Positions 21,446 through 61,700 are shown, counted from the first letter of the stretch. The stretch is DNA of 64,000 nt from Candidatus Abzuiibacterium crystallinum (GCA_002787155.1 PCVY01000023.1:6828-70827); one strand, 5' to 3'. A program made the numbers and translations. The notes: generated by a model from the sequence alone, not told the origin.

Positions 21446-21454
21446 ATTATTCAC

Positions 21455-23320: not shown

Positions 23321-23334
23321 ACACAGGACAACAG

Positions 23335-23946: not shown

Positions 23947-23955
23947 GCAGATACC

Positions 23956-24489
23956 ATGGCACTCAGCAAAAAAGATAAAATTCAATTAGGCATCATCGTG
24001 ATGATGGTCGGACTGATTATTTTTAAATTGCCGGACTTCGTGCGGTTCGTGAGCGGTACCACACAAAAAGCCTCCTCAGGCGTTCCAAATGCCTTACCGG
24101 CACTGCCCGAGAATGCGCCCGATTTTTTGAAGGCCATGGTCATGCAAGTACGCAGCGGCACCGCTCATCCTCATTTCAATTTAACGCAAGAGCGGGCTCT
24201 TAGAGAACAGCAAGCGCTTCTCAAAGAACAATCCTGGGGAAGAGATCCGTTTTTTTCGATCCCCATTGATGAATCGCGGTCCAAAAAAATCGAAGTCACC
24301 GACAGCTCCGAATTGGTTCTCAAAGCGATCTCATTAAAAGGCACAACCGCCATGGCCATTATTAACCAAACGGTCATTCATGTCGGTGATGAAATTTTGG
24401 GAATGACTGTCAAATCCATTGAGCGCGGTCGTGTGATTTTAGCGAACAGCGAACGCGAACGTGTTTTACGTTTTGGAGGCATGACATGA
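23956..24489 (+). CDS. PilP/GspC-like small periplasmic protein
   Basis: 177 aa. It has an N-terminal TM helix and a C-terminal beta-rich segment (LKAISLKGTTAMAIINQTVIHVGDEILGMTVKSIERGRVIL), as in PilP / GspC HR domains. It overlaps the secretin gene by 4 nt. Confidence 0.45.
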   Translation: MALSKKDKIQLGIIVMMVGLIIFKLPDFVRFVSGTTQKASSGVPNALPALPENAPDFLKAMVMQVRSGTAHPHFNLTQERALREQQALLKEQSWGRDPFFSIPIDESRSKKIEVTDSSELVLKAISLKGTTAMAIINQTVIHVGDEILGMTVKSIERGRVILANSERERVLRFGGMT

Positions 24490-26147
24490 CAAAACCAATC
24501 CAGTTTGGTTTTGTTTTTCTTATGGTGTTGGCATTAACCGTCTCGCAGGCACAGGCAGACTACTCGCCGTCAACCGTTCAAAGCGATGATTCATTGGTGA
24601 CGCTGGATGTTCAGCAAACTGATATCAGAAGCGTGCTTAATCTGCTTGCCGAGCAGTACGACTTGAATATGGTGATTGATGATGACGTGACCGGCCTGAT
24701 CACCATTCGTTTGCAGGATGTCTCACTGCACGGAGCGTTACAGGCCATTTTATTATCGCACGGGTACGATTATGAAACCGTGGATAACATTGTCCGGATC
24801 GCTCCGACCGAAGTCCTGGCAGGCGAAAGAGTCATTCGGCAGGAACGGCAGGGGATTGAACCGCTTGTTTCTGAGGTGATTACGCTGCAATATTTAGACG
24901 CCAGCGACATACGCCCAGCCATTGAGGCGCTTCTCTCAGAGCGCGGTTCCATCAGCGTGGTTGAACGCAAGAACTTTACCGGGTTTCAGTTTGGTGCGCA
25001 GGCTGTTCAAACCGGATCAAGCACTTCCGGCGCAGCTGGTGAAGGATTAATTCGTGATAGACGCAAAGGAGATTCTACTGCACGGTCACGATTTTTATTG
25101 GTGACCGATACGCGCAGCCATGTGGAACGCATCAAGAGCGTGATCCGCAATGTTGATGTCAGGCCGCCGCAAATCCTGATTGATGCCAAAATCTTAGAGG
25201 TAGAAACAGACACCTTAGAGGATTTGGGTATTGAGTTTGATTCGCAAGTGACGCCGCCGACAGAAAATGATCATAACAGCGTGTTAAATTTTGATTTTAA
25301 TCAGGGCGTGAGCGGCAAAACTTTTCCCACGTCAAGTGATCAAGGGCTGAATGTTCAGTTTCAAAAAATCATCGGTGAGAATTTTCAAGCGGTTTTACAT
25401 GCGCTGCTGCAGGATGAGCGAACACGAACGCTTTCCAGCCCGCGTATTTTGGTTTTAGACGGACAAGAAGCTGCCATTTTGGTAGGGGAACAGTTCCCGA
25501 TTTTCGAAAGCACCGTTTCCGATCAAGGAACGGCCACCGAATCACTTTCTTTTTTCCAACCGATCGGTATTAGTTTGCAAGTGATTCCGCAAATTACCGC
25601 TGACAATAATATCCAGATGATCATTCACCCGACCGTCAGCTCAGTCGGTAATTTTGTGACGGGCAGCACCGGGCTCACTCAGCCCCGTATTAACATTCGC
25701 GAAGCTGACACTCAAGTGCTCGTGAAGAACAGCGAAACGCTTGTGATCGGCGGGCTGCTCGAAGACATTACAGTCGAATCTGAATTTAAGGTGCCAATTT
25801 TAGGGTATATTCCTTATCTGGGAAAACTATTTACACGTACCCGGACCGATGTGGATCAAAGAAATCTCATTGTTTTTATTACGCCTCAAATCATCAGCCC
25901 GGATGTTGGGTTGAGTGACAAACGGGCCAAGGAGGCATTCCTGGGCATTGTGGATTCGGATCGTTACGGTTTCTTGCATGAAAGGCGTGAGAATGTTAAA
26001 ACACATATCCAAGAAGGTGTGCGTGCTTTTCATTTAGGTGATTACGAAGTGGCCCGGCAGGCATTTGAACGCGTTCTGCGCTTGGATGATCAAAATCAAA
26101 CCGCCCGTGAGTACCTCAATAAGATCTACAACGCCCTCAGAAATTGA
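24486..26147 (+). CDS. Secretin (PilQ/GspD family) with a C-terminal TPR-like extension
   Basis: 553 aa. It has a signal peptide (FVFLMVLALTVSQAQA), N-domains, and a secretin core: TRTLSSPRILVLDGQEAAILVG...LVIGGLLED...KVPILGYIPYLGKLFTRTRTDVDQRNLIVFITPQII. Confidence 0.9.
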   Translation: MTKPIQFGFVFLMVLALTVSQAQADYSPSTVQSDDSLVTLDVQQTDIRSVLNLLAEQYDLNMVIDDDVTGLITIRLQDVSLHGALQAILLSHGYDYETVDNIVRIAPTEVLAGERVIRQERQGIEPLVSEVITLQYLDASDIRPAIEALLSERGSISVVERKNFTGFQFGAQAVQTGSSTSGAAGEGLIRDRRKGDSTARSRFLLVTDTRSHVERIKSVIRNVDVRPPQILIDAKILEVETDTLEDLGIEFDSQVTPPTENDHNSVLNFDFNQGVSGKTFPTSSDQGLNVQFQKIIGENFQAVLHALLQDERTRTLSSPRILVLDGQEAAILVGEQFPIFESTVSDQGTATESLSFFQPIGISLQVIPQITADNNIQMIIHPTVSSVGNFVTGSTGLTQPRINIREADTQVLVKNSETLVIGGLLEDITVESEFKVPILGYIPYLGKLFTRTRTDVDQRNLIVFITPQIISPDVGLSDKRAKEAFLGIVDSDRYGFLHERRENVKTHIQEGVRAFHLGDYEVARQAFERVLRLDDQNQTAREYLNKIYNALRN

Positions 26148-43700: not shown

Positions 43701-46700
43701 TGCCGATCGAAATCAGCAGGCACGCGCGTTGGCAAGGGGAGGAGCCGCGCAAGCACTCAATCTGTTAACCATTCGCTTGCTGGGTTTGCCAGCGGGGCGC
43801 ACCATGGAACAACAGTGGCAGGAACTTTTTAAAATCACCGAAAAAGGAATTCCCAATCTTCAGAAACCGGAACATTTAAACGGCGCGCGCGCCGAAGATA
43901 TTTTGGCGGGTCTGGCAGAAATTTCCAAGACGTCTCAAGGACAACTCAAAGAAGTGGTGGCTGAGCTCATCCAGGGACGGTTTAAATTGCTGGTGAATCA
44001 CGATGTCGAACGGTTTAAACAAATTGGCATCATCATTGGTTTTACGGGGATTGACGGTTTTGCAAAGATTCCGTTCGGCCGCTTGCGGGAAAAATATCAT
44101 CTGACCGAAGGCAGTGAAGAGGAAGGCCGGCTGCTCAAAATCGTTGCCCAAATTTCCAGAACAGCCCGGGAAGGGACAGGCGGCCTCATTGAAGAAGTGT
44201 TTGATCTTTACAGCCAAGAAGCCGGCGAACATTTGGACGATTTGAACAAACTGCTTCAGGCATTTAGTTACTTTGTGCGGCTTGTGAATTTTCACCACGA
44301 TTATGAACGGCTTGTCTTAGAAGGTGATATCGGCAAGGTGAACAATGAAGCGCTCTTTGTCAGCTTGCGGGATTTGAAGCGCACACTTGATATCGTGAAG
44401 AAAAACGATGCCAAAGGGATGGACATTCGCGATGCCATTGCTTCTGCTGTCAAGCGCCGCTATTACAACCGCTTGAGCATCGAAGATCGGGGTATTGTTC
44501 GTGATTTAATGGCGAGACACCGGCTGATTCATGAAAACGATCTCCTGGATTTTGATTATGTGATTGATGGTTTCAAAAACGGCAGTTCCCGAATTCGTAT
44601 CTATCGCAAACGTAAATCAGGCCCGGCGCGGTTTAAACGAACGGAAGTCAAGCCCGGCGAATATAAGATGGAATTAATTCAAGAAAGCGTGGGAAAACCC
44701 GAACTGCTGCTCGAGATTCCGCTGGCTCAGCCGCTTGCCAACGTTGACCCGAAAATTATTTTAAACGAAACGACCCGCCGTAACCTGGCCAATATTCTGG
44801 ATGCATTGGAAGTGGAGGAGGGAAAGCGCTTTAATCCGGTGCTCGAATTTGGCGTGACTTCAGGCGGCAAAAGTACGACGGCAGCGTTGGTTGCCAAGAT
44901 TCTGGGCGTTGGTTTTACGCGCATTCAAATCAATGAACGCACCGATGAATTTGACCTTTTCGGATCGTTTCAGCCTTATGAAATCAATATCACGTTAGAA
45001 GAAGCCATCCAGCTTTTGCAGGAAGCGCTGGCCACGAACAATTATAACGGTCTTGAGGATGTGTTTAGTCGTTTAAAGTCGGATCAAACGGGACAATTTT
45101 GGGAAAATTATTTCAATGCTCAAGAACGACAGACAATCGAGCTTGGAAAGGACAGCCGTTATCCCCAGCGTTCGGTATTGGAGCGTCAACGAGCCGCCAT
45201 TCGTGATAAATTAAAACAATTGGCGGATAAACAGTTAGAACTTGCTCAATCGCTCAAAAGTTTAAGCGCTCAGGAACGCCGCCTCATTGATTCCAAGACA
45301 GATAACCCTGTCTGGCAAGCGCAGCTTGCCCAGCTGCGCCGGGAAGAAGCGGAAGGTTTTGATCAGCTGAACCGCATCAAATCCATTGCATTTATGTTAA
45401 ACCACGAGGTGGGCCTTCGGTATAAGGAAGGGCGTTTTCTCACGGCTTACAAGCGCGGAGATCTCATTCTGCTTGATGAAGTGAATTTAGCCAACGAAGA
45501 AATGCTGGGCGTGCTTTATCAATTACTCACTTTGGGTTATTTGGAATATAACGGCAAAGTGATCGAACCGCCTTTGGGCAAACAAGCCCGCATTCTAGCC
45601 ACGGCCAATCCCTCCGGTTATGCGGGCCGCAGACGCATGAGCGAAGCTTTTATGAACCGTTTTGAAATTATCCATGTTGATGAAATGACGGATGAGGAAA
45701 TGCGCGATATCGTGGTTGGGCAAATGATGAAAGATCTCATCGCCTCAGGCCGCTATACAGCCGGGGATTTTGAACAAAACTCGGATGAAGCGCCGGAAGT
45801 ATGGGATAAAAAAATCAACAAGATTTTACAGGAAGAATATGGTATTACGCGCGAAAGCACTCGATTGTTAGCTGGAGTTCAGCGAAAATTTAACAGCATT
45901 TTGGCGACGGGCAGTTTTCCGCGCATGGGATCCGACTCCAATTATGTCTTCACGCTTCGGAATCTTCAACGGATCGCCGGCGATGTGAAAGAACGCAAAG
46001 AAAATGGCGAACGCATCACCCTTGAAACCTGGATTCGGGAAGCGTACGGCGAATATGCCGGCGTCCTCATGCGGCCCAGCACACAGCCTTCCTACACCGC
46101 AGAGCGGCTTAAGCCTGATGAATCATTGCCGGCGGAACATCATTTATGGGATGATCCGGATTACAAAACCATTCGGCGGGTATTTACGACTTTCATGGGT
46201 GAATTGATTGCCGGAGAAAGTCATCAAAGTTACGATGACGCTTTTGACGAACTCATTCGCCGGCATTTTGAAACCATTCCGTATGTCTATGACTCAACCG
46301 CCCATGCCATCAAGCTGGACGGTCTTCTTACCCAAGGTGCTGAGCCAAACGATCAAAACCCCATTGAACCTTTAATCGAAGTGGGGTCAACCAAAATGGT
46401 TCAAAGGCAAATTTTAAAAGGCATTCGCCGGAATATCCCAACGCTCCTTGTCGGTCAATCCGGCGGCGGTAAAACAGAAATCATCGGCGACTTAGTCAAT
46501 CGCCTTGGCCGTCAATATATCAGCGTGTCTTTGGGCGATGCCACACTGGAAAGTCTGATCGGCACCATGGAATACAACCGAATGGAAAAACGTTTTGTTT
46601 ATCGGCGGGGTGTGCTCGTCAAAGCCATGGAAGAAGGTTCGGTTTTGGTGCTGGAAGAACTCAACATGGCTAAATCGGGCATATTAGAAATTTTGAATGA

Positions 46701-49700
46701 ATATTTCGATGACGGAACGTTTACCAACCCGTTTACCCTAAAACAGGTAGCGGTACACCGTGACTTCCGGTTGTTCGCTACCATGAACCCGATTCAGGGT
46801 GAGACGGGAGAAAATTTAGGCCGCGTGAGTTTGTCGCCCGCTCTCAGAAACCGCTTTCGGGAAATTTGGGTGCCGCACAAGAAAACGGACGCTGAAATGA
46901 ACGAAATTTTAATCGGAAAATTCAAGCAATTGGGTGTTGAAAAAATCGAAAAAGCAACAGGCGCCAAAATCATCGGCTTTTTCCGTGCCTATGAAGAGGC
47001 TTTTAAAGATCAAGCTGATCCGGTGTATTACACCAGTCTGCGCGATTTGAATCGGATTGCCAAAATCATGGCTTATTTAATCAATGAGCTCGACATGCAT
47101 GAGTCGGATGCATTGGCGCGCGCCATTGACCGCGTTTACCGTTTACGCATGCAAAACAGCGGCGCCTTGGCAGTGGTCGATCAAATTCTCATTGAGCTTA
47201 AAATCAAGATCCCGGGTGCCGGTCAATTGTCGTACCAGTCTCGGAATGGCGTCTTGGAAGTGCGCGATGGTCAAACACTGGTTGCCAAATTAGACCTTTC
47301 TTTGATACAGGCCAAGCTTCGCGACCGCATCCGCGGAGAACTCAGTGCTGATACGGATCCGGCAGAACTTGAAGCACTGACAGAGAAGCGTCTAAAAACT
47401 CTCTTGGATGAAGCTGTCTTGGTAGAAAATCCGCGCACGAAGGCTCATCTGCTGGATTTAATGGAAGCCGTCACGCTTCCTTCCGGCGAAGTGAAAAAAG
47501 GAAAATTTAACCCGATTTTTCTTTTGGGTGAGACCGCCGGCGGGAAAAGCTCCCTTACCAAATATTTGGCACTCCATCTTTTGGGCCAAAACTATACGCG
47601 CATTCAATTCAACGAACGCACGGATGAGTTCGACCTTTTTGGCGCCTATGAACCGCGCGAGCTTCACATGGGTCTGGACCGCGCTTTTCGGATTGTTCAA
47701 AATGCGATGGAACAAGGGGAGTGGGTCAAAATCAAGAAAGCCTTGAAGCTTTGGCAAACGGGGGCATTGACCGAAGATGATCTGTCCGAACTTGAAATGA
47801 TTGAGAAGGTGGAAGAGCGCATTCGCACGGTAGATTTAGAGGCCTCTCAACAGATCACAAAGATCTTAAAGGATGCTTCCGAGGAAGATGTCTTAGGTGA
47901 CCCCGGTCAGAAACGTGAAGCCGAACGCAAACTCAAAACCATTGCGTTTTTGATTGAAAATAACATGTTAAATGTCGAGCTGGAATTTCGCGAAGGCAGG
48001 TTATTACAGGCGATCAGGCGCGGCGATGTGGTGGTGCTGGATGAAATGAACCTGGCGAATGAAGAAGCGCTCGCTGTTTTATATCAACTCCTGACTCTGG
48101 GTTATGTGGAGTATTACCACAAAGATACCCGGCAAGTCGAACGCATTACCCCGGCACCGGGCTTTAAACTCATGGCGACCGCAAACCCCGCCTCATATGC
48201 GGGTCGTCATCGGTTGAGTGAAGCCTTAATGAACCGGTTTGAGATTCATTATGTGATGAACATGACACCCCAAGAAATGACCGAGATTCTGCGCGGTGAA
48301 AATAGTCATGAACCAGTGTTCGAACGCGATCAGTCATTTCAGACCACTGTTGAGAAACTGACATTGCTTCAAGAAAATATCAATGAAGCGCTCCGAAACG
48401 GTCAATTTCCCGAAGTGAGTTCCGACCAAGTGCAAGGCTATTTATTTACGCTTCGCAATTTGAAACGTGTTTTACGGAATACAGCAGAACTCTTACGCCA
48501 AGGCGACAGTTCGCCGCCATCTGAGTCACTCATTCGACAAGCCTACCTTGAATACTTAGGCGTCCTCGGACGTTCAGACGCCTCCATCAAAACGCTGCAG
48601 TCTCTTTTCAAAGCGCCAAAACAATTTCCCCAATTTAACCCTGATTTTCGAATTTCCTTTGAGTCAATGACTATGCCCAACGGTCAATCGGGTATTTTAG
48701 CGGGTGGTTTCAAAGTCGTGAGACGTTTTTATGAAGATGAGGCAGAAGGCGTTTCGCACGATGCAGATGTCATTGAAGAGCTTGAAGAGGGTGCAACGAC
48801 TAATTTGATCCGCCAAGCAATTGCGAAAGGACTGTTAGATTCTCGGATGGCGGTTTTGCTGGTGGGGCAAAGCGGCGGGGGTAAAACAGAAATGATCGGT
48901 GATTTAGCAAGGCGTCTGGGCTGGCGCTACCGCTCCGTTTCGCTTGGTAATGCCACCCTGGAGAGTTTAGTCGGCGGTTATGCCATGGACCACGAAACAA
49001 AAAAATTCCGTTATATCCCCGGGATTTTAATCCAGGCCATGCGCGAAGGCGCCATTTTGGTTTTGGAAGAAATGAATATGGCACCGTCCGGACTATTAGA
49101 AATTCTGAATGAATATTTTGACGAAAGTACCTTTACCAATCCCATGACGGGACAGAAAGAAAAAATTCATCCCAATTTTCGGTTATTTGCCACCATGAAT
49201 CCGGAAAAAGGTGTGACGAGTACCAGCGAAGGCCGTGTCGGCTTGTCGCCCGCTCTTCGCAGCCGTTTCTCAGAAGTATGGGTGCCCCATATACGGACGC
49301 AGGCGGAAACAGAGAGAATTATTCGTAAGAAATTCAGCAATCGAGGGGTAAGCCATGTACCGCCCAAAGTGACGGAAGATATTTACCGCGTCTATGACCA
49401 ATACCGCCGGTTTGTTGAAGAAGGCAAAATTGGCCAAGAAAGCAACGAAGGCTATTACGTCGGTTTGCGTGATGTGGTGAAAATAATTGACCTGGTAGCG
49501 CAGGATCAATCGCGCGGCATTCCAATGGAAGAAGCGCTGCGTTTTGCCTTCAAACGAATTTTTTATTTACGCCTCAATAGCGATGCGGACCGCAAAACAG
49601 TTCAAGAAGAGATTCTAAAAACATACGACATGAGCAAGACGGAATACCAATGGAAAAGTGTGAATGACCATTGGGTGGTTAAGCGCACTCAGTGGCAAAC

Positions 49701-52700
49701 GGCAGAAGTTCCGAAGGCACTTTTGAAGGAAAAAGGATTTATTTTAACGCCGCAAAGCCAAGAAGAGCTCGCGCTTCTGCTAGAGGCAATGCAGCGCGGC
49801 GTGACTATTCAGGGCAAAGCAGCCGCGCGTTCCTTTAATCCCATGATGCTGTTTGGTGAGACTTCCGGAGGAAAGTCTACCTTGGTTGAAATTGCCGCCA
49901 GTATTTTCCGGACCCCCTTTACCCGTATTCAAATGAATCAACGAACCGATGAATACGATTTGTTGGGCAGTTACCATCCTGTTGAAGTGAAGTTGACATT
50001 TGAACAAGCCTATGAAGTCGTTCAATCGGTTATTCGCCAAAATCAAACACTGCGTACCGCACAAGTGCTGCGGGCTTTACACATCACGGATGATCACGTG
50101 AAATCGGTTTTGCGCATAAACCCTGATCAAACGATGCCCTTAGAGCAGCTTCAAAAGCGCTTTTTAGAAGAACATGTTTTGGCAAATGCACGGCAGGGAA
50201 ATCCCAAGAGCATTGAACAAATGAAAGATATCGGCGCACTCCTCTTGAACGGCGTTGCCGGCATTGAACTTATTTTCCGTGAAGGCATGCTGCTTCAGGC
50301 CATGGGCGACCGTGAAACCGGTCGACCGGGTCAAGTGGTTCTGTTGGATGAATTTAATTTAGCCAATGAAGAAGCAATCGGCATTCTTTATCAACTGCTA
50401 ACGCTGGGATATATCGAATTTCAAGGGCGGAAAATCTTTCCCGGTAAAGGGTTTCAATTAATTGTGAGCGGCAACCCTTCCCGCTACTCGGGCCGAAGGC
50501 GGATGAGTGAAGCTTTTATGAACCGCTTTGAGATCTTGAACCGTCCTTCAATGACCAAAGAGGAAATGGTTAAAATCTTGACGGAGAAATATGCTTTAGA
50601 AGCATCGGGGATTTCGAAATCCGGCATCGAAGCCCTGGTTGATTTGCAGTTCGACATCGAAGAAACGGCTCAGTCCATCGGTTTTGACTTTTTCAACCAA
50701 GATAACACGTACCGATTTAGTTTGCGGAACTTGGAACGTATTGTGCAGGATTTGAAAAAACGGATGGAAGTGGAGCCCGAACGTTCCGTGCAAGTCATGT
50801 TGCGCGAAGAGGCCTATTTAGAATATGCCGGTTTGCTTTCACAGTCCACCGATGAGGATGATCCGAAGAAGAATAATTTGAAAGTCTTAGCAGGTCTTTT
50901 TAAGAAACACTTCAATTGGGAGATCGATCCGGAAACGGTTTTACCCGAATTCAAGAAGCAGACGCTTGTTAAAGGAGAAGACGAATGGATTTCCTTAAAC
51001 GGGGTGCGTGTGAGAAAACTCTCACCGCATCAAATGTTAGAGAGTTTGCAGTTGGAATTAAATGAAGAAATCAGAAGCGGCGCCTTGGCAGATGATGATG
51101 GCGGAAAATTAGTGCTTTTAACAGAGGCGAATCTTGTGCGCATTTTAGCGCAGGTAGAAAAACGGCTCGCCAGTCATGATCCGCTTTCAAGAAAAGAAAT
51201 CATGCGCGAGGAAGCGCGCACGGAATATCTTAAGATGCTGGGGGAATCGCCTCGTTTGGTCAAGCGCTTAGACGAACTGATTAACCAGCATTTTTATACT
51301 CAAGCCGAGCGCATCGAGCCTTTGGTAGAACTCAAATCAACACGTTTGGTGCGCATGCAAATTTTAAAAGGCTTCCGTGACGGCGGCGTGATTCGTTCTC
51401 GTGATACGGAAGGACGGGAGGTTTTGAATCATCGTTCGCAGCCCGTGCTTTTAGTCGGACAATCGGGCGGCGGTAAAACCGAAGAAATTGCCGATGCGGC
51501 CAGGGAGCTCAACCGGCCTTATATTTCGGTGGCGTTGGGTGCGGCGACCATTGAATCGTTAATCGGCAGCTTTGTGCTGAATAGCGAAACGGGCACTTTT
51601 GAATTTCGAAAAGGGATTATGGTGCGCGCGATGGAAGAAGGGAGCGCGCTCACGCTCGAAGAGCTCAATATGGCGGAAAGCAGCATTATCGAAGTGCTGA
51701 ATGAATATTTTGATCGAGGAACGATGACGATTCAAGAGCGGAATGTTCCCATCCGCATTCATCCCAACTTCCGCTTGTTTGCGACAATGAATCCGACCGA
51801 AGGCAGAACCGGCAGAAATGCGGGACGTATCCCGCTGTCTCCTGCGCTGAGAAGCCGGTTTCGGGAAGTCTGGGTCCGCAATGAACGCAATAAGGGCGAA
51901 CAATACCGCCTCATGTTAGGCGGGATTCACGCGCTTGTTTCTTCTTTAATTACAAGAGGTCTGCCGGAAGATAGGCCGGATGAATTGGAAAACTTAGAGC
52001 TTGATTGGACACGCCGAAGATTGGCTGAGACCGCCGGGCAGCAGGTGCAATTCGCAAGCAGCGAGTCATTGTCCGCCGCATTAAAGGCGGGTCCGTCCAT
52101 TACACTGCCTCGCCATGACAGTTCAGCTATCCGCATGGCCAAAGCATCTGAAGACGGAACGCCCAAAGAAAAACCCACATCAAAGGAATGGGAGCGTATG
52201 GCTATCAATGAAAGAAAACGCATTTATGAAGAACAGTTTCGGATTGTGAGCCACGGCATCATGAACATCATGTCTTCCGATGAAGCCATCGAGTTAGGCC
52301 TATCAAGAGATGGAAGCCATCATTGGGCGTATGCACCTAGTATCAATACATTAATTTATAACAGCCGGGAAATCATGACTTTGAGCTTGGATGCGTTAAT
52401 CGGTGTCGGCGTTCATGAATCGATGCACCGTTACGGCACCCGGTATACGTCTCTTTTTGCAGACTTTTTAGATGCACAGAGTTTGGCGGGCAGTTTTTTT
52501 AATATTTTAGAAGACGGACGCATTGAAAATTGGGCACGTTATCGATTCCGGGGCGTGGAGCGGCCGCTGCGCACACTGAATGATGAAATTATTTTTGATT
52601 TTGAAGATGATAATGAAATGGTTGAGCGCATGATTAAAACTTCTAAAGATGGTAAAGACATAGGTCATGCCGGTGCCATCGGTAATTTCTTTCTTTATCT

Positions 52701-55700
52701 CGCAAAACGCGGATCAGATCCGGGCGCCGGCAAAGTCATCGAAAAGTTCTTAAAAGCGTTTGAAGAAAGAGATCCGGCTTTGAAAGAGGATATAGAAAAT
52801 CTCATGCAAGCCGGCTATTTTGGCGGTGCCAGAGACGAAGATATTATTGATGCGGCACGGCAGCGCAAAGCACAAGGCGTTTTTTCAGCTATTCCAGTCT
52901 CGCCTGATGATGTGGGTGTTTATCGTGTGGATCCCAATCCTTCGGAAGAAACAATTTTGCAATTGGCCATTCACCAAGGTATTTTGATTCGCGATTTTAT
53001 CATGCCCGTTGTTTACAAATGGGCGGTGCTCCAAGCCGAAGGCGAAGGAAGCGGGAAAAGCGGTTCGGGCGGCGCGCCGGGTAGAGGGAAAATCGTCATT
53101 CGGCCGGGCAAACCCGGCGAAGAAAGCACGCCTATTTCACCGCGTGAGTGGAAAAAAATTTGGGATTCATTATCTGAAAATGACAAAAAGAAAATTCTGG
53201 ATACGCTGGATGATCTCAAGAAAAAAGCCCAGGACCGCACAGCCAAAGATTCTATCGATCATAAGAACGCCGCCATCGATGCGGAAATTACCGAACCTAA
53301 GAGCGAGCGCGACCGCTTGATGAGCCAAATGGGCAAGATGATTCATGAGTTGGCAGGATATCTGAGAGATCTTATTCAAAATACGATTCGGCCCAAAGAA
53401 ATTACCGGCCTCAAAAAAGGCCGTATCGACGTCCGGCGTCTCATGAACGCCATGGCGCGCGGTTTTACCGACATGCGTTTTTACAAACAGCGCATCATCC
53501 CTGACAAAAAGGATATCAAATTTACCTTAATCATTGATGAAAGCGGCAGTATGGCAGGGATGGGTGAGTCCGGCAAAGGTCCTGAGGACAATGCGGCAGC
53601 CAAAGGTTACCGCACCTTAATGGGCGCCGCCCTATTAATGGAAGTCCTTGAAACTTTAGGCATTGATTTTGCAGTCCGTGGTTACGGGGATGACACTTTT
53701 CTGCATAAGCGATTTAAAGGACAGCGTATCGAACTATCCGATCAGCGCGCTCACTTTCCGCCGGTGCCGGATGGTTATGCCACACGCAAAGAAAAAGATA
53801 CTTTAATCGATGACTTATACGGTTCTATCGGTAACCATGGCGGCAACAACGAAGGGCCGGCGCTTCAAGCCGCGATTCGGGATATCTTAAAGGCAGGCGG
53901 TGAAAAACATTTTGTCATCGTGATTACCGATGCGATGGGTGACACCAAAGCCATACAAGAGATTTTAGACGAAGTCAGAGCTAAAAAAGGCATGATTGGT
54001 TCCACACAAACCGAGTTCATTGCCATTGGTTTGGGTAATGATACGGAATCGGTGCCGGAGGTCTACGGCAGCGAACACGGATTTTGGCTGCATGATGACG
54101 AAGTCCACAAACTGCCTTCCGAAATTAAAAAGCTGCTGCAAAACGTGATCCGCGGTGTTTATGCACCCGGCAGCGGAACCCCCAGCCGTTTTTCACAGTT
54201 CGGCAAACGGATGACTGATAGTGCTTCAATGGCGGGTGCGGCGGGTGTCGGTGCAAGTACTGCTTCTGCTTCGAGCGCAGCCCGCTCGCACTCAGAGCTG
54301 CGTGCAGATGATTTGGAGTCAAAGGTGCGGAAGATCATTATTCGCTTAGCGCGTTCCCAAGGCGATGGTTTATCTGCTGAACAAGAGCACACGGATATGC
54401 TCAGGCGGTTAGGGGTGCTGGCCAATCGAAGATCACCAGAGGAAGTTTTTGAAATTGTGATCGAAATGATGGCAGACGAGACAGTTGGTTTTAGTCGAAA
54501 AGAAAATGCGATTCGCCGCGCTATCATGGAAGCGTTTCTGAAAGAACTGACACCATCGGCTGTCCTAACCTCGAGCGCGATTAATGAGTTACAAGATTTA
54601 ATGCACACTTTAGCCAGGGAAGCCCACTCACCGGAGGCTCAAGCAGAAATTGACGTGATCAAGAGTCGCATCAAAGAGCTCAGGCTTAAACTGATCATGC
54701 GTCAAGAGGTCTTTACTTATGCCAAAATCACCCAACTTTTGTCTCTCGATCCCTCTGAGACGGTTGATTTATTTCTTGAATCTCTTTTAAGCGGCGATTA
54801 CAGCTCGGGAGTTGATCGTAAAAGAATGGCTAGTAATTTTGGAAATTTGATCTCAAACCTAAACGGCGAACTATTGTTGCAAACAACCGAGCAAATCATT
54901 GAAGCTATCCGGACAGATCCTCGAGCTCACATTGATCCTTATGAGAACCTTGAGAAATATGGGTCAAAGATAGCTTACGAACGACATTCGATTCTGTTGG
55001 AAGGTTTATTGGTGGCTGTGAAAAAGGTGGATCGTTCTATATTGCAGTCAATTGTTGATTGCATGGTTCAAGACTTGCAATATGAGAGGAGCAAGAAACT
55101 CAAGGCGGAAATTTTAGCTATTGCTTTGTTGCGTCAGGAAAATATTATTACTACCAATCCATCTCAAGAAGAAAAAAGTCTCATTAATGCATTAGTAAAC
55201 TTGCCGGGACGTTCCACTTTTCAAACCAGTGATCTAAAAGAAATAACGCTCATGTTGCAGCATGCCAAACCAAAACGAGGGCGCCTGTCAAGCCAAGCCA
55301 TTAAAGTCCTGAGGGAACAGATTAAGAATTTTGATGAGCAAATCAGAGCCCGGGCAACACGCGCACAAAATGAAAATGAACAGCGTTCTGAAGACAATTT
55401 GTTGCCTCCGGATACTGAATCTGAGCTTTGGTTAGAAAATCCTCGCGCGGAACTCCGTACCGAAAATGATGGCAGCAGACGTGTCGATCAATTGTTAAAA
55501 GAACTTCAATCGATTCAGGGATCAAGCGATGAAGCGAATCGCATCAGGCGCGACATTGGGCGGGCTTTAAAGAAGACGGTGGAAGAAAATGCAATCATTG
55601 ATCCCTCTCACGCTGCCCAAGTTCTCATCTCAACGCTTCATCAAATCAAAGGGTCAAACGCCGGGGCTTATAAAGCCAAAGAAGCCATCGGATGGGCGCT

Positions 55701-58700
55701 GGCCGAAGTAGCCAAAAAAATTGAAACAACGGAACTTCCCAAGATTTCTCAAGCTTTTATTTCGGTTCTTGAAGCAATAGAAGGATCGAGTGCTGCCGCC
55801 ACTAATTTGAGATTAAACGCTGCGTGGATGCTGGACGGAACCGCTCAAAGAATTGATTTAACCGAACTCCCTGCCATTTTCCAGGCGCTCATTTCAGCAC
55901 TTGGTCAATTAAGAGGGTCAGATGCCGGCACCAGGAATGGCAGAACAGATTTTGGCTTTGTGCTTACCGATATCGTGTTTCGTTACCATCAGCTTGCTCC
56001 TTATTTAGAAAGCAGTGAAAGTGAGTTACATTCAGCAATGAGAAACCTGATGACAATGCTTTCCTTTTCCGATGATGTTCCTCTTTTTCCTCGATATGGT
56101 GACTGGGACACTCTTCATCAAATTTTTGAGATGGGGGATTCAAAAAAAATTATTCAAAACTTAAAGAAATTCCGGGAACAAATTTTTGCACAGTATCAAA
56201 GGGAACAGAGATCAGGGGACAGGGAACAGGGGACGAGGGACAGGTTACAGGACACGGGAACAAATGAAACCCTTTGGACGGCGGGGGTTGCCGGCAGCGT
56301 GAGTGCGGGAGCTTTCGTTCCCGCTGCCCGCAGTGAGCTTAGGACCAAAAATTATTTTCGAACGGCAGTTGATAAATTATTAAGAAAACTTAGATCCATG
56401 AGAGTTCATAGATTATTAAGAGAACTCAAAGGATTAATTGGTAATACAACGTCTGATGCCCATTGGGCAAGATTGGACATTGCCGGCGCCCTCATAAGAA
56501 TATCAAAAAAAACTGATTCAACGGATCTTCCCGCTGTTACACAAGCCTTGTTTTTAGTACTCAGTACAACTGAAAGATCATCTTCTCTTGGTCTTGAAGA
56601 GGAAAGAAGGTTAGGTGTTTTTCGTGCATTAAGAGAAATATCAAAAAGAATTGATTCAGCAGAGCTTTCCGCTATCTTACATGCTTTGTTTTCAGTCTTA
56701 AGAGAAACTAAGGGATCATTTGTTTCTGCTGCTTATGAAAGAAGGGCCATTGCCAATATATTCATAGAAATATCACGAAGAATTGATCAAACAGAACTTC
56801 CTGCCATGATGCAAGGCCTGCTGAGCGTTCTTCTGGAAGTATTTGAAGATTCAGGTTCTGCGGACCATGATGCAATAGAGGCCGTTGCCGGCGTATTAAA
56901 CGAAATTTCAAAAAGAATTGATCAAGCCAATCTTCTCAATTTCACGCAAGCTCTGCTTTTAGCGCTAAGTGAAATTAAAGGATCAAATCAGGATGCCAGT
57001 ACGGCAAGAACAAAAATTGCCATCGTATTAAGGGAAATATCAAAAAGCATTGCTGACACGGAACTTCCTACCGTCACCCAAGCCCTGCTTAAAGCGCTAA
57101 ATGAGAGTGAAGGATTCGATACGTATGCCAGTGATGCAAGAGCGCAAATTGCCGTTGCATTAGAAGAAATATTAAAACGCATCGATGAAACAGAACTTCC
57201 CGCTGTCGCCCAAGCTCTGATTTCGATCTCGAACAAATTTAAAAGCTTAGGTTATAGCTTTTGGCCAAATTCGACCATTCAAGAGGCTCTTGCTGTTATT
57301 GTCTTTCGTCATCATCAAATGCCTGTTACAGATGAAACAAATGATTTATTGAGCGCTCTTCAAGATGTCTTTACACTTGAAATGAACGGTGTTTCCATCT
57401 ATCCCATAGAAAACCATCATCCGTTGAACAACCCAGACAACCCCATTCATCAAATCTTTAAACAACATGGTCAAGATCACGCACAAATCATGAGCCAACT
57501 CAATCGTTACAGGGAACAATTGAGCGCACAGCATCAAAGGGAACAGAGATCAGGGGACAGGGGACAGGGAACAGGGAACAGCTTGCCGGATCAGGATTCG
57601 CTTTGGGCAGCGGGAGTGGGTTTGGGTACTTTCTTGTTCACTGCTCGCAACGAACTTAGAAACGGATGGTTGGCTGAGCGGGGACACTATCTTGTTCACC
57701 GCTTTGTTCACATGGTTTATGGGATCCGGATTAAATTTAGAAAGAAAGATCATATTACCGAAAGAGTGCTTGCGCTCATTAACGAACTTAAATCATTAAA
57801 AGGATCTGGCCCGGATGTTGTTCAATCCATCACGGATCTTGCCACTTCATTAGTCGAGAATTTAAAGCACATCGATCAAAAGGATCTGCCTTATGTGCTA
57901 GATGTGCTTCTTTCAACTCTCAAACAAATCAAAGGCTCAGATGATCGAGCGACCGATGCGCGAGTGTGGATAACAACTGTATTGGGCACAATGGTGGATC
58001 GCCTTGATAAGAAGGAACGGACTAAACTGGTAAAAGAATTCCTTTCCATTTCTCGACAAATGAAAGGAACCATGGTGAACAACATTTTTGTTTGGACCAA
58101 TATCTTGCAAACGTTTGCGGCCATGTTGGCATATCTGGATGATCATGAGCGTCCCTTGATTATCGAAGAGTTGGTGACAGCTCTCAAGGACATAGAAGAT
58201 CCTACTGGGAATGCGGATCTGATTCGCAAAAATATCAGTGAAACTTTAAGTATTTTCTTCTTTCATCGCCATGGTTATCCTGATCTGGAAAATAAAGATC
58301 CGCTATTTGTTGCTTTAAAAAAGCTTTTTGGAGCAACACAAAACGCTGTTTCGCTCTTCCCGCGTTATGGTGATTTAACGGAAGTAGACAGGATTTTACA
58401 ACTTGAAGACCGTGAGAAAATTATTTCTCAACTTAACGCTTACAGGGAACAATTGATGGCACAGTATCAAAGGGATCAGAGATCAGGGAACAGGGATCAG
58501 GTGTCAGGGGATGGGGGGCAGGGATCAGGGAACAGGTCGCAAGATATGAACGATGATCTTTGGTTGGTCGGATTAGCCGGAGCGGCAGCTGTTCATCGGA
58601 CCGAATTAAGAGGCGTCGAGTCGCTTTTTAGGCAGTTGATTAATCTTGTTCGCTCAGCACTTGGCCGCAAGCAGCCGGCCGGCTCGTTAAAAACAAAACT

Positions 58701-61700
58701 TCATGCGCTGATCGGCATGCGGACCGAGGAGGCACATCAACAACGTGCATCACTTTTGGTGCAGCTTAAAAATGAAGTGTCTTATGCAAGCCTCAGTGAA
58801 CTGACAGTCATCATTTCTGTTCTCTTCGATTTAATAAAGGCATATGAAGATTCAAGCCAAAGCGAGCAGGCGCTGATCCGGTCGATTTTCAAAAAGGTGA
58901 TTAAACGTCTTGATCAAACAGAACTGCTCCATCTGAGCCAACGCTTGTTAGGTGTTTTCCAATCGATGGATAGTTCCGAATATTTGGCGCATCAAGCCCG
59001 AGAATCGTTGGTAAAAGCTTTTATTGCGGTCACGCAAAACATTGATTACTCAGCTTTTCCGCGCGTGATTGAAATCATGCTTAATTTTGCGCAATCACGT
59101 GAGCTGCAATATGATATCGGCGGCACACGTGGGGAGCCGGCAAGGTTAAGATTTGAGTTGGCACCCGCTCTCGCGGCTATGGTGAAGCGTGTTCCGCGAA
59201 ATAAGCGTCTTCAAACCATTCAATTTTTGCTTGATCATCTTCGTTTGATGGCTCAAACGTACGAAACCGTGAATATGGGTTCAGAGATCGTCCGGTATTC
59301 GTTGAATGAGATAACAGAGCAAATGGATTCCCGCGCGTTGCTTGATCTGACTCAATTATTATGGCGCACATTGGAATTACTGGAAGATTCAAGCAGGTCT
59401 GCCTTTGATGTGAAGTTTAGGATTCTTTATGTTTTGGATGATGTGATAGGGAAAGAGGCCGAAGTAAACTCTAGCCGTTTGACGGAAGACTGGCGTCACA
59501 GGATTGATCAATTGATATCGTATTTACGTCGGACACCTAATCACAAGAGAGATACATTTGATATCAGATGGATGGTCAGACGGATTTTAATGACCATTAC
59601 CTCAAAACTTGAGGGGCCTAGACTTAACGATGCTGTTGCCGGGCTTTTAGATCAACTGGAGTCTATCCATGACTCTGATGATGTCAGTAACGGCGCCAGG
59701 CAGGTGATAGCGGATGTTTTGGCTAAAGCCGTTCATGGTTATGATAAGGCGTTATTGTCTCGTGCGGCATCCGTGCTTTTTGAAACGTCAAAATTAATTG
59801 TCACGCAAAATCAAGAAGCCAATCAAGCAAAAGCCGCATATGGAAAAGTATTAGTGGAAATTGTTTTACGGCTGGATGAATCCGCATTGTCTGCCCTGGT
59901 AGCGCCTCTCGGGCAATTACTCGATTCCGTTATCCCTATACACAAAGATAGAGTGATTCAGTACGAGAGAGATTCGCTTGGCGCAGCTTTATCAATTGTT
60001 ATTTTGCGATTACACCAGATTAATTTTCATTATGTAAGAGATCCCAGCGCTTATCCAGATCCCAATGATTATATTGATTTTTTACAATATAACATCGCAA
60101 TGCTATTTAACCTCTATATCGAAGACCCTTCTTTTTCCGCGCAGACTAAATGGGATGCCATTGAGCAATTCACTCGAGATGTTATGGGTGACGATCAAGT
60201 GCTTCCGGAAGCAAAGCGCGAGGCCCTGATGGGAAAAATTGGCACATACCGTGAACAGTTGGATGCTGCTTACAAAAGGCATCAGTCCGAGGAAGGCGGC
60301 AGCCAAGACACCGGCCCTGAAGTCCAGGATGAACCGGGCGATTCGCTTTGGTTGGCACGTGCTTCTACCGGAAAGTCAGAACTCAGGGAGGATGCGCTAA
60401 GTCGGATGACAGAGAATCAGTTATTTGATGCATTAATATCCATATCATTTCATGACGACACAACCATTTTTCATCGTTATGCAGGTCCTTTGATATGGGA
60501 ATTGGCCGCAAGGGTAAGGCGTATTAAGAACCCGCTTAGTCAGGAGGTTTTGCTTCAGATGGTGCCAAAACTCCTGGAAGTTTACTTGAGGCATAAAGTT
60601 GTTGAGGAATGGCTTGATCAATTAAGGCAGGAAATCGATCATACACTCAGCGACATTGCCAAACGGTTAAAAAATCAAGAACGTACAGAAATGTTGAAGA
60701 TGATTTTGGATTTCTTGTATTCATTCCCAGGCGCCGGGGTTGAGCTGAATCGCGTCCGGGTAACTGCGGGAGACGTTTTGCGGGAAATCGCAAGAGGCAC
60801 TGATGCCGAAGAACTGCCTGATTTATTAAATTCGGTTTTATCCATTTATCAAGCAATCAAAGGATCAGACAGAGATGCCAATCAAGCCAGATGGAGAATG
60901 GGAAGTGCGTTAAAAGAAATCGCTAAACGTATTGATTCATCCCAATTACTTCCCTTGGTTACACCTCTTTTGGATTCTCTTTCACTGATGGCAGATCCAA
61001 GAGACCCGTCAAGCGCGTACGCAAATACGGCATACCGCACTGTTGCCAATATTTTAAGAACCATCGTGAAACGCATAGATCCCCATCAACTGCCTGAAAT
61101 AAAAGCGCCGCTTTTAGGTGCGCTGACGCATATACAAGGCGACACCGAAGCTGCGCGTTTTGCACGGGGTGATATTAGCAGATTGCTTGCGGAACATTAT
61201 TTACGCTCACATGGATTAGCCTTAAGCGGACGCGGGGGTAATTTACTCAAAGCTTTTGCGGATGTTTTTGCGGCCGCATCACCGGACGGAATATCGGTAT
61301 TTCCTCTCTATGGTGATCAAAAAGAAATTGATCGTCTTTTTCAAAGTGCCGCAGACAAAAATGGCCGCATAGCACCTCAAATGCGTCAGCAACTCATTTC
61401 ACAACTTCAAACTTACCAAGAACAATTAATCGCCGCGTATCAAAGGGATCAGAGATCAGGGAACAGGGATCAGGGGACAGGGAACAGGTCACAAGACACG
61501 GGAACAGATGAGACGCTTTGGGCGGCGGGGGTTGCCGGCAGCGTGAGTGCGGGAGCCATCGCGTCCGCGGCCCGCAGTGAACCATCGACTCGCAGCGAAC
61601 TGCGCTCAAAAGATTATTTCCATCAGGCAACAGAGAACTTGCTGCGCGAATTGGCCGCGCTTCAAGGGTCTAGCGATGATGTCAATCAACGCAGGAAATG

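What the first reader, a model, noticed from the sequence alone, without database searches (positions are those of the whole stretch)
52300..54130. HExxH zincin-like segment plus VWA/MIDAS domain directly after the AAA+ ring
About 170 residues after module 6 comes VHESMH (52414-52428), followed by NILEDGRIENW. About 370 residues further on is a VWA domain with an intact MIDAS DxSxS (DESGS, 53536-53550). MoxR-type AAA+ ATPases characteristically work with VWA partners. A putative metallopeptidase-like module N-terminal to a VWA-like domain is a known pairing (DUF2201-type, from memory). Here ATPase, zincin-like module and VWA are fused in one chain, reproducing the ring-linker-MIDAS logic of midasin. 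The MIDAS domain would be expected to grip an acidic residue of a ligand and transmit force from the ring. The ligand could be one of the protein's own cassettes, a pilus component or a host/prey surface molecule. If the HExxH site is catalytic, it could process the ELR junctions.
Basis: partly seen in the sequence, partly recalled or inferred. Interest (0 to 1): 0.8.

Follow-up and report, generated by a model that had tools for sequence, protein, structure and literature searches.

The report
Protease-like adaptor fused to midasin-like ring
Right after a six-module ATPase ring, a giant protein of an Omnitrophota bacterium carries a complete copy of the adaptor protein that related motors normally use as a separate partner; its zinc-protease motif is intact, giving a bacterial, single-chain counterpart of the eukaryotic ribosome-assembly motor midasin.

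Summary
VHESMH (52414-52428), NILEDGRIENW (52501-52533) and DESGS (53536-53550) lie in one unbroken frame of an ORF of at least 10,766 aa, just after the sixth AAA_5 module.

The segment 52.2-54.16 kb is one unit. It is a full-length homologue of the CobT/NorD/CbbO adaptors of CobS/NorQ/CbbQ (MoxR-type) motors. Its parts are:
- an N-terminal zincin-like domain
- a disordered linker
- a shaft or finger
- a VWA domain with a MIDAS site

The evidence is as follows.
- Of 82 aligned units, 81-82 keep H, E and H, 80-81 keep N..ED, and all keep the MIDAS D/S/S/D.
- Stand-alone relatives of about 600 aa sit directly downstream of an AAA_5 ATPase gene.
- The N-domain model (pLDDT 92) has the zincin topology. 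Its structural neighbours are M48 peptidases and minigluzincins, and its profile finds selecase (E 5.6e-4).
- The VWA model is closest to NorD and to the human MDN1 MIDAS domain.

It is not a DUF2201-type protein. NorD and CbbO have lost the catalytic Glu (HMxxH); this subfamily keeps it.

The likely mechanism is the one seen in NorQD and CobST: the shaft sits in the pore, the N-domain on a lid, and the MIDAS site on a client. Cleavage by the zincin is possible but untested.

I rate it a new variant of a known kind. The ligand and the idea of ELR-junction processing remain speculation.

The parts
44600..52200 (+). Context: a single-chain ring of six AAA_5 (midasin/dynein/CbbQ-type) modules. 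They alternate between two types (GxTxGGKS and GQSGGGKTE), so the ring looks like a triplicated pair.
   Evidence: Pfam AAA_5 hits in every module, and Walker A motifs at 44851, 46453, 47527, 48865, 49855 and 51457. Best PDB sequence match is midasin at E 1.7e-86, followed by NorQ, CobS and CbbQ at about 1e-8 to 1e-6.
52201..53046 (+). N-terminal domain of the adaptor unit. It is zincin-like (M48/minigluzincin-like) and equivalent to CobT_N and the NorD NTD.
   Evidence: - AlphaFold2 model: pLDDT 92.2, pTM 0.89. Topology is helix 2-16, three strands, helix 63-79 (HExxH) and helix 95-115 (NxxED).
- A profile of this domain alone finds selecase at E 5.6e-4.
- The domain aligns to the N-terminus of stand-alone relatives of about 600 aa.
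52414..52428 (+). HESMH: two predicted zinc-binding His residues and the catalytic Glu, on the active-site helix.
   Evidence: H, E and H are kept in 81, 81 and 82 of 82 aligned units, and E and the second H are invariant in A1, A2 and A4. NorD and CbbO have HMxxH at this position.
52501..52533 (+). NILEDGRIENW on the next helix. E104 (52510-52512) is the predicted third metal ligand, and N101, D105 and R107 are conserved around it.
   Evidence: N101 is kept in 80 of 82 units, E104 in 80, D105 in 81 and R107 in 76. The motif lies in helix 95-115 of the model. NorD and CbbO keep LEDAR[VI]E here.
53047..53304 (+). Flexible Gly/Lys/Glu-rich linker between the N-domain and the VWA part.
   Evidence: Low-complexity sequence with no conserved columns. 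pLDDT is 51-73 at the start of the VWA model. CobT has a disordered linker of about 90 residues and NorD an unresolved linker at residues 242-393.
53305..53511 (+). Long alpha0 helix, then the shaft or finger: strand, short helix at the tip (KKGRIDVRRLMNAMA), strand. This is the element predicted to enter the ring pore.
   Evidence: - Model elements H35-62, E65-70, H77-85 and E94-98 have pLDDT of 87-97.
- G407 is invariant in all 82 units.
- The stretch aligns with the midasin sequence GKRLNIKKIIPYIAS....
- CobT shaft residues 373-413 and NorD finger residues 403-448 occupy the same position just before the MIDAS site.
53512..54162 (+). VWA domain core.
   Evidence: Model core pLDDT is above 90. 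Foldseek places it nearest to the NorD VWA domain (6e-11) and human MDN1 MIDAS (1.3e-8, TM 0.71), then integrin I domains. The family profile matches CobT at 6.7e-32, midasin at 3e-19 and NorD at 1e-9. Pfam VWA scores 5e-4, just below its cut-off.
53536..53550 (+). MIDAS motif DESGS (D446, S448, S450).
   Evidence: Invariant in all 82 aligned units. Equivalent to CobT D422, S424 and S426.
53845..53931 (+). The remaining MIDAS residues: N549 (53845-53847) and D577 (53929-53931).
   Evidence: D577 is kept in all 82 units and N549 in 56. The spacing of 28 residues from N to D equals that between CobT N518 and D546.
54163..54327 (+). S/A/G-rich junction ending in SELR. The block conserved with relatives ends here, so it marks the end of the ring-plus-adaptor cassette.
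   Evidence: Low-complexity scan. BLASTP blocks shared with P0002, P0003 and P0004 stop at nt 54243-54249.

Best explanation
Bases 52201-54162 encode one functional unit: a cis-fused adaptor of the CobT/NorD/CbbO class. It sits at the C-terminal end of a six-module AAA_5 ring, inside a giant Omnitrophota protein.

The unit has four parts:
- a zincin-like N-domain with an intact HExxH...E metal site
- a disordered linker
- a shaft or finger
- a VWA domain with a complete MIDAS site

The anatomy, the homology and the fusion are shown by the data. The mechanism below is inferred from the solved NorQD and CobST(N) complexes.

1. The shaft inserts into the central pore of the ring encoded just upstream.
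2. The N-domain docks on the small (lid) subdomain of one AAA module.
3. The MIDAS site binds an acidic residue of a client.
4. ATP-driven steps of the ring rotate or pull the VWA domain and shaft relative to the N-domain. This stretches the linker and remodels the client.

This subfamily keeps the catalytic Glu that NorD and CbbO have lost. The N-domain is therefore likely to bind zinc and may cleave the client or the giant chain itself. That would make the cassette an ATP-driven, MIDAS-targeted processing machine.
For: Homology of the whole unit:
- 250 relatives were found at E <= 1e-3, and 81 of the top 150 carry both halves in one unit of about 600 aa.
- These relatives hit Pfam CobT_C and the PHROG families annotated as CobT or cobalamin biosynthesis.
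- The family profile finds CobT at 6.7e-32, midasin MIDAS at 3e-19 and NorD at 1e-9.

Gene context:
- Two stand-alone relatives lie directly downstream of an AAA_5 ATPase gene; in one of the two that product also hits CbbQ_C.

Same fusion elsewhere:
- P0002, P0003, P0005, P0012 and P0017 have six AAA hits directly before the unit. Other relatives have two.
- The conserved block runs from about 43,900 to 54,249.

Zincin nature of the N-domain:
- Near-invariant H, E, H and N..ED.
- A confident model with the canonical topology of helix, three strands, HExxH helix and Glu helix (topology as defined in PMC5512222).
- The sequence profile finds selecase at E 5.6e-4.
- CobT_N is reported to resemble peptidase M48C (10.64898/2026.07.21.739949).

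VWA domain and MIDAS site:
- Model and Foldseek neighbours, and invariant MIDAS residues.

Mechanistic template:
- NorQD (PMC13036017) and CobST.
Against: - No experiment and no model of the complex: docking of the shaft and the N-domain on this ring is inferred by analogy.
- No sequence match was obtained between this N-domain and CobT_N or the NorD NTD among PDB chains. The link to them rests on the whole-unit profile and on the CbbO/NorD alignments.
- In NorD the free C-terminus binds the ring. Here the chain continues for more than 3,200 residues, so that contact must differ.
- In all characterised relatives the N-domain is a docking module, not a peptidase.
- The only hydrophobic segment of the ORF looks like a signal peptide. 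If the bulk were exported, the ring would have no ATP.
- The homologue set was gathered with a query that contains the HExxH motif, which favours sequences that keep it.
Confidence: 0.8

Rival explanations
1. The N-domain is only a docking or metal-holding module, as in CobT and NorD. It would anchor the adaptor on an AAA lid and help hold the client. The HExxH...E site would bind a structural or cargo metal without cutting peptide bonds.
For: - CobT_N binds the small subdomain of CobS and also CobN. The NorD NTD binds the NorQ lid.
- CobST and NorQD act in metal insertion.
- NorD and CbbO keep H..H and E but have Met in place of the catalytic Glu. A non-proteolytic version of the fold therefore works.
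Against: - The catalytic Glu is kept in 81 of 82 units at about 20% overall identity, and it is invariant in A1, A2 and A4.
- A purely structural metal site would not need that Glu.
- The conserved N..ED.R motif resembles the second-shell pattern of gluzincins.
Confidence: 0.35
2. The zincin processes the giant polyprotein itself. It would cut at the S/A/G-rich ...SE[LM]R junctions, or in its own linker, and so release cassettes.
For: - A junction of this kind starts at the end of the VWA domain, about 30 codons downstream of where the conserved cassette ends.
- Self-processing by embedded zincins is the published prediction for polyvalent giant proteins of phages and plasmids (PMC5512222).
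- Peptidase-mediated cleavage of giant Omnitrophota proteins has been proposed, for other peptidase families (10.1101/2023.11.21.568195).
Against: - Only three such junctions exist in 10,766 residues, and none lies upstream of the ring.
- Stand-alone relatives of about 600 aa keep the same active site with no polyprotein to process.
- No evidence of cleavage exists.
Confidence: 0.12
3. It is a true midasin orthologue, working through a long mechanical linker arm as in eukaryotic ribosome assembly.
For: The ring's best PDB match is midasin. The shaft and MIDAS region aligns with midasin. The human MDN1 MIDAS domain is a close structural neighbour.
Against: - The organism is a bacterium.
- Only about 110 residues separate the AAA6 core from the adaptor, against a linker of about 1,700 residues in Rea1 (PMC11603028 abstract).
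- There is no D/E-rich region.
- It has a zincin N-domain, for which no match in midasin was found.
- The family profile matches CobT more strongly than midasin.
Confidence: 0.05
4. The motifs are chance occurrences in a long ORF, or the pairing is of the DUF2201 type.
For: By composition, 0.43 HExxH and 2.7 DxSxS are expected by chance in the ORF. Pfam gives only sub-threshold VWA hits for the window sequence.
Against: Conservation across 82 to 172 relatives, confident fold models, and no DUF2201 or DUF2201_N hit for the window segment at E <= 10, nor among the 25 most frequently matched families when the 47 A1 members were scanned at E <= 1.
Confidence: 0.01

Closest known systems
CobT, adaptor of the aerobic cobalt chelatase CobSTN (PDB 9UKA and others; bioRxiv 10.64898/2026.07.21.739949)
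   Same: - Same order of parts: an N-domain with a helix, a three-stranded sheet and then helices (reported to resemble peptidase M48C), a disordered linker, a shaft just before the VWA domain, and a VWA domain with MIDAS residues D/S/S/N/D at matching spacing.
- It is the best PDB sequence match of the family profile (6.7e-32).
- It partners a CobS AAA_5-type ring.
   Different: - CobT is a separate protein of 637 aa working with a homo-hexamer. Here the unit is fused to a six-module single chain, and the chain continues beyond it.
- The N-domain-only profile found no match to CobT_N among PDB chains.
- No CobN-like client is evident.
NorD and CbbO, adaptors of NorQ and CbbQ (NorQD cryo-EM, PMC13036017)
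   Same: - N-domain, linker, finger and VWA-MIDAS in the same order.
- The finger sits in the pore and the N-domain on the AAA lid.
- The NorD VWA domain is the closest structural neighbour of the VWA model.
- CbbO and NorD N-domains align to this N-domain, including LEDAR[VI]E.
   Different: - NorD and CbbO have HMxxH, so the catalytic Glu is lost. The window and 81 of 82 relatives have HExxH.
- NorD's free C-terminus binds the post-sensor-1 loop. Here there is no free C-terminus.
- They are separate genes, not fusions.
Midasin (Rea1/MDN1)
   Same: - A single chain with six AAA_5 modules followed by a MIDAS domain whose loop enters the ring.
- The ring is the best PDB sequence match (1.7e-86).
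- The shaft and MIDAS stretch aligns.
   Different: - Midasin is eukaryotic. It has a linker of about 1,700 residues and a D/E-rich region, and no zincin-like domain was detected in it.
- In the window the adaptor follows the ring almost directly, and the cassette is embedded in a protein of more than 10,000 aa.
Minigluzincins (selecase, proabylysin, projannalysin) and M48 peptidases (ZMPSTE24, BepA)
   Same: - Core fold and order of elements.
- HExxH on the first helix and Glu on the second.
- The profile finds selecase at E 5.6e-4.
   Different: - The N-domain carries about 170 extra helical residues.
- No activity is known.
- It is fused to a VWA domain.
Phage and conjugative-element gene pairs of an AAA_5 ATPase plus a 'CobT-like' protein (phrog_1576, phrog_5298, phrog_17276)
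   Same: These are the nearest stand-alone relatives. They have the same HExxH...NxLEDxRIE...DxSGSM layout and sit directly after an AAA_5 gene.
   Different: They are two genes rather than a fusion, their function is unknown, and they are annotated only by similarity to CobT.

Membership tests
CobT/NorD/CbbO-type adaptors of MoxR (CobS/NorQ/CbbQ) motors | C-terminal VWA domain with a complete MIDAS site (D-x-S-x-S ... N/T ... D) | tested here: met
   DESGS at 53536-53550, N549 and D577. VWA model with core pLDDT above 90. Nearest structures are NorD and MDN1 MIDAS.
CobT/NorD/CbbO-type adaptors of MoxR (CobS/NorQ/CbbQ) motors | Shaft or finger element immediately N-terminal to the MIDAS strand | tested here: met
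   Strand, short helix and strand at model residues 65-98, with invariant G407. Same position as CobT 373-413 and NorD 403-448. Insertion into the pore was not tested.
CobT/NorD/CbbO-type adaptors of MoxR (CobS/NorQ/CbbQ) motors | N-terminal M48C-like domain joined to the VWA part by a disordered linker | tested here: met
CobT/NorD/CbbO-type adaptors of MoxR (CobS/NorQ/CbbQ) motors | Significant sequence similarity to family members | tested here: met
   The family profile containing the window sequence finds CobT at 6.7e-32 and NorD at 1e-9. 43 of 47 aligned members hit Pfam CobT_C. The window sequence alone is below the Pfam cut-offs.
CobT/NorD/CbbO-type adaptors of MoxR (CobS/NorQ/CbbQ) motors | Works with an AAA_5-type ring encoded next to it | tested here: met
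   Here it is fused after six AAA_5 modules. Stand-alone relatives follow an AAA_5 gene. Physical interaction was not tested.
Zincin (gluzincin) metallopeptidases | HExxH on one helix and a third-ligand Glu on the following helix | tested here: met
   HESMH lies in helix 63-79 and E104 in helix 95-115. These positions are conserved in 80-82 of 82 units.
Zincin (gluzincin) metallopeptidases | Core fold: N-terminal helix, three-stranded sheet, two helices | tested here: met
Zincin (gluzincin) metallopeptidases | Metal-site geometry, zinc binding and peptidase activity | not testable with these tools
   Model coordinates could not be read, and no biochemistry is available.
Midasin (Rea1/MDN1) | Six AAA modules in one chain followed by a C-terminal MIDAS domain | tested here: met
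Midasin (Rea1/MDN1) | Long structured linker (about 1,700 residues) and a D/E-rich region between the ring and the MIDAS domain | tested here: not met
   Only about 550 residues lie between the AAA6 core and the MIDAS motif, and most of them are the zincin-like domain.
DUF2201 (metallopeptidase-like DUF2201_N plus VWA-like DUF2201) | Match to Pfam DUF2201_N or DUF2201 | tested here: not met
   No such hit for the window segment at E <= 10, nor among the 25 most frequently matched families when the 47 A1 members were scanned at E <= 1.

The most novel reading that the evidence does not exclude
The ring-plus-adaptor cassette (about 43,900-54,250) would be a prokaryotic single-chain relative of midasin whose adaptor is still an active zinc peptidase. 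Two things would follow.
- The six-module fusion and the docking of a MIDAS shaft in the pore would predate eukaryotes or have arisen in parallel with them. The literature read here places the origin of six tandem AAA domains early in eukaryotic evolution (PMC3495828).
- The ancestral CobT/NorD/CbbO adaptor would have been a protease. These motors would then have begun as ATP-driven, MIDAS-targeted processing machines. In Omnitrophota, such a machine would cut a client or the giant polyprotein itself.
Probability: 0.2. Interest if true: 0.85.

Novelty: new variant of a known kind. Interest (0 to 1): 0.62.

Why it matters
- It gives a concrete, testable function to about 3,400 residues of an otherwise unannotated giant Omnitrophota protein. 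The papers on these proteins that I read list AAA_5 only as a frequent domain, or do not mention midasin, MoxR or VWA at all.
- It shows bacterial single chains with six AAA_5 modules plus a cis MIDAS adaptor. Relatives with two modules plus the adaptor, and relatives with the ATPase as a separate gene, also exist. Together they form a graded series that bears on how midasin and dynein arose from MoxR-like systems.
- It identifies a large, mostly unannotated subfamily of CobT-like adaptors with an intact zincin site. These occur in phages, conjugative elements and giant proteins.
- It shows that NorD and CbbO carry an inactivated version of the same site (HMxxH...E). This bears on how these metal-insertion and remodelling chaperones work.

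Tried and rejected
- The word-based protein search with the window segment found only one fragment. The full HMMER scan was needed.
- Pfam and NCBIfam on the window segment gave only sub-threshold VWA or VWA_CoxE hits and nothing for the N-domain.
- The genome-contig scan with the single protein found no relative. The organism was identified instead from exact matches of upstream proteins.
- The afdb50 fold library was not available.
- Foldseek of the N-domain against the PDB gave no significant hit.
- The N-domain-only profile found neither CobT_N, the NorD NTD nor midasin among PDB chains.
- PADLOC gave no defence-system match for the unit.
- I suspected a 20-kb repeat because two minus-strand ORFs lie exactly 20,000 bases apart (43369 and 63369). 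They are 28% identical, so it was coincidence.
- The self-BLAST of the giant ORF in that call returned no usable rows and was not pursued.
- Garbarino and Gibbons 2002 is not held. Iyer et al. 2004 was not looked up. An earlier description of bacterial six-module proteins therefore cannot be excluded.

Full report
**1. What is there**

The + strand frame containing 52300 is open from 31699 (ATG at 31702) to the end of the window. The ORF therefore has at least 10,766 codons and runs off the window.

Exact matches of upstream proteins place the window in an Omnitrophota genome assembled from a metagenome, Candidatus Abzuiibacterium crystallinum, on a contig of 112,992 bp. A cluster of type II secretion and type IV pilus genes lies at 9.7-26 kb. 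This is the neighbourhood published for giant Omnitrophota genes (10.1101/2023.11.21.568195).

Within the ORF, six Pfam AAA_5 modules are found, with Walker A motifs at 44851, 46453, 47527, 48865, 49855 and 51457. They alternate between two sequence types. By sequence, the ring matches midasin best among solved structures (E 1.7e-86 over five stretches), followed by NorQ, CobS and CbbQ.

**2. The observation**

- HESMH is at 52414-52428, NILEDGRIENW at 52501-52533 and DESGS at 53536-53550.
- By composition, 0.43 HExxH and 2.7 DxSxS would be expected by chance in this ORF. The motifs alone prove nothing; homology does.

**3. Homology of the whole segment**

A word-based search found only one fragment. 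A full HMMER scan of 1.84 billion representative proteins with 52201-54300 found 250 proteins at E <= 1e-3.

- 81 of the best 150 carry both halves, HExxH region and VWA domain, in one unit of about 550-780 residues. For most of them that unit is the whole protein.
- In a MAFFT alignment of 82 units, H72, E73 and H76 are kept in 81, 81 and 82 sequences.
- N101, E104, D105 and R107 are kept in 80, 80, 81 and 76.
- G407 and the MIDAS residues D446, S448, S450 and D577 are kept in all 82. Numbering starts at nt 52201.
- Of 172 relatives chosen only for a MIDAS motif with enough upstream sequence, 161 have an HExxH 200-650 residues upstream of it.

There is a caveat. The query contained the motif, which favours relatives that keep it.

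**4. Which family**

- The stand-alone relatives hit Pfam CobT_C: 43 of 47 aligned members, best E 4e-16. Two give a faint hit to the CobT N-terminal model.
- They also hit the PHROG families annotated as CobT or cobalamin biosynthesis.
- A profile of alignment A1 finds CobT (9UKA chain G, 6.7e-32), the midasin MIDAS domain (3e-19) and NorD (1e-9) among PDB sequences.
- With the window sequence alone, the only PDB sequence hit below E = 0.1 is the midasin MIDAS domain (E 0.023). It aligns GRIDVRRLMNAMARGF...IPDKKDIKFTLIIDESGSM with GKRLNIKKIIPYIASSY...IPSKRAYQILLCVDDSSSM.
- Two stand-alone relatives that I located on contigs lie directly downstream of an AAA_5 ATPase gene; in the first the ATPase product also hits CbbQ_C. 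One contig looks like a phage and the other like a conjugative element.
- No DUF2201 model is matched.

**5. The N-terminal domain**

AlphaFold2 with a 73-sequence alignment gives a confident model: pLDDT 92.2 and pTM 0.89. Its elements, in order, are:
- helix 2-16
- strands 22-25, 43-45 and 50-53
- helix 63-79, carrying HExxH at 72-76
- helix 95-115, carrying N101, E104 and D105
- seven further helices, with two short strands before the last one

This is the published core topology of zincin-like metallopeptidases: an N-terminal helix, a three-stranded sheet, a helix with HExxH and a helix with Glu (PMC5512222).

Three searches bear on the fold.
- Foldseek finds nothing significant. Its top hits, at E about 1, are again selecase and jannalysin.
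- A profile of the N-domain alone finds selecase at E 5.6e-4. The alignment runs through the strands and the HExxH helix.

Independently, a July 2026 preprint reports that the crystal structure of CobT_N is a helix, a three-stranded sheet and eight helices, and that it resembles peptidase M48C (10.64898/2026.07.21.739949).

CbbO- and NorD-annotated proteins align to this N-domain with VAHMAAH / AAHMAAH and LLEDAR[VI]E. They keep the three putative metal ligands but have Met in place of the catalytic Glu. The window therefore belongs to a subfamily in which the full active-site signature is retained. I could not measure the site geometry because model coordinates are not readable.

**6. The C-terminal half**

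The model of 53203-54300 has a core pLDDT above 90. Its elements are:
- a long helix
- a strand, short-helix and strand element (residues 65-98; tip sequence KKGRIDVRRLMNAMA)
- a VWA fold whose first strand ends in DESGS

Foldseek puts the NorD VWA domain first (6e-11 to 5e-10), then human MDN1 MIDAS (1.3e-8, TM 0.71), then integrin and complement VWA domains.

The element before the MIDAS motif sits where the CobT shaft (373-413) and the NorD finger (403-448) sit. Both of these insert into the pore of their ATPase ring. The CobT MIDAS site is D422, S424, S426, N518 and D546. Here D446, S448, S450, N549 and D577 have the same spacing, 28 residues from N to D.

Between the two domains lies a Gly/Lys/Glu-rich stretch with no conservation and low confidence (53047-53304). 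It matches the disordered linkers of CobT and NorD.

**7. The fusion recurs**

- Relatives P0002, P0003, P0005, P0012 and P0017 have six AAA hits directly before the unit.
- P0014, P0044, P0082 and P0093 have two.
- Most relatives have none, and their ATPase is a separate gene.
- The block shared with the closest relatives (44-61% identity) runs from about nt 43,900-44,300 to 54,243-54,249, ending about 30 codons upstream of where the VWA core ends (54,162). The flanks do not align.

Ring plus adaptor is therefore a conserved cassette of about 3,400 residues set in variable surroundings. Right after it comes an S/A/G-rich junction ending in SELR (54163-54327). Two similar junctions lie further downstream and none upstream.

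**8. How it most likely works**

Shown: the anatomy, the homology and the fusion.

Inferred from the NorQD and CobST(N) structures (PMC13036017; 10.64898/2026.07.21.739949):
1. The shaft enters the pore of the ring.
2. The N-domain binds a lid subdomain.
3. The MIDAS site holds an acidic residue of a client.
4. Nucleotide-driven steps rotate or pull the VWA domain and shaft relative to the N-domain, stretching the linker and remodelling the client.

Further inferred from the conserved catalytic Glu: the N-domain binds zinc and may cut the client or the chain itself. My estimates are:
- about 0.8 that the unit is a CobT/NorD/CbbO-type adaptor acting on the adjacent ring
- about 0.5 that the zincin is catalytically active
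- about 0.1 that it cuts the SE[LM]R junctions

**9. Differences from known systems**

- Unlike CobT, NorD and CbbO, the unit is fused to a six-module ring, has no free C-terminus and keeps HExxH.
- Unlike midasin, it has no long linker arm and no D/E-rich region. It has a zincin-like domain, which I did not detect in midasin.

**10. An open puzzle**

The only hydrophobic segment in 10,766 residues is a signal-peptide-like stretch at residues 11-29. If the bulk were exported, an ATPase ring would have no ATP. Three readings are possible:
- the segment is an anchor and the bulk is cytoplasmic
- the true start codon is elsewhere
- the protein acts inside another cell

**11. Novelty**

The parts are known kinds. 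The papers on giant Omnitrophota proteins that I read list AAA_5 only as a frequent domain, or do not mention midasin, MoxR or VWA. A search for 'midasin-like' together with 'bacterial' found nothing relevant. One paper states that six tandem AAA domains arose early in eukaryotic evolution from MoxR (PMC3495828). The original AAA+ classification paper was not looked up and the midasin paper is not held, so earlier mentions of bacterial six-module proteins cannot be excluded. I rate the finding a new variant of a known kind.

Noticed in passing
window 31702-64000: The giant ORF has only one clearly hydrophobic segment, residues 11-29. It looks like a Sec signal peptide (K5 and R9, a hydrophobic core, then LLLA|E). 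No membrane segment lies between it and the ATPase ring, so the location of an ATP-dependent ring is unexplained.
   Followed up: partly
window 44851-52200: The six AAA modules alternate between two sequence types (FNPxxxxGxTxGGKS and LLVGQSGGGKTE), as if a two-module unit had been triplicated. Relatives with exactly two AAA modules plus the adaptor exist (P0014, P0044, P0082, P0093).
   Followed up: partly
window 43900-54249: The block conserved with the closest relatives (P0002, P0003, P0004) starts just before the ring and ends within a few dozen residues of the VWA C-terminus. The flanking parts of these giant proteins do not align. Ring plus adaptor behaves as a movable cassette.
   Followed up: partly
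window 54163-54327, 61468-61614, 62983-63072: Three S/A/G-rich junctions share a (W/M)AG.(A)GV.G...SA...(R)SE[LM]R pattern. All lie downstream of the VWA domain. The second is hydrophobic enough, on a rough hand estimate, to be a marginal glycine-zipper-like helix.
   Followed up: no
P0199 (NorD-annotated) residues ~40-90; P0200 (CbbO-annotated) residues ~255-305: NorD and CbbO N-domains align to the zincin-like domain with HMxxH and LEDAR[VI]E. The three putative metal ligands are kept and the catalytic Glu is replaced by Met. The NorQD paper does not mention a metal site in this domain.
   Followed up: partly
L001 3615-6857; L002 3282-7202: Gene pairs of an AAA_5 ATPase and an HExxH-VWA protein occur on a phage-like contig (with DNA polymerase A, RecA, Thy1 and QueC) and on a conjugative-element-like contig (with a topoisomerase and TraG). 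Phage databases annotate them as CobT, which is unlikely to be their real role.
   Followed up: no
window 9773-26147: A cluster of type II secretion and type IV pilus genes (GspE, GspF/PilC, several pilins, PilM/N/O-like proteins and a secretin) lies upstream of the giant ORF, as published for giant Omnitrophota genes.
   Followed up: partly
window 54328-64000: The more than 3,200 residues after the cassette have no Pfam family above threshold. There are only faint armadillo/TPR-like hits at about 60.4-60.8 kb. The region could be a helical-repeat platform, but that is not established. In CobSTN an armadillo-like domain of CobN lies next to the CobT MIDAS site.
   Followed up: no
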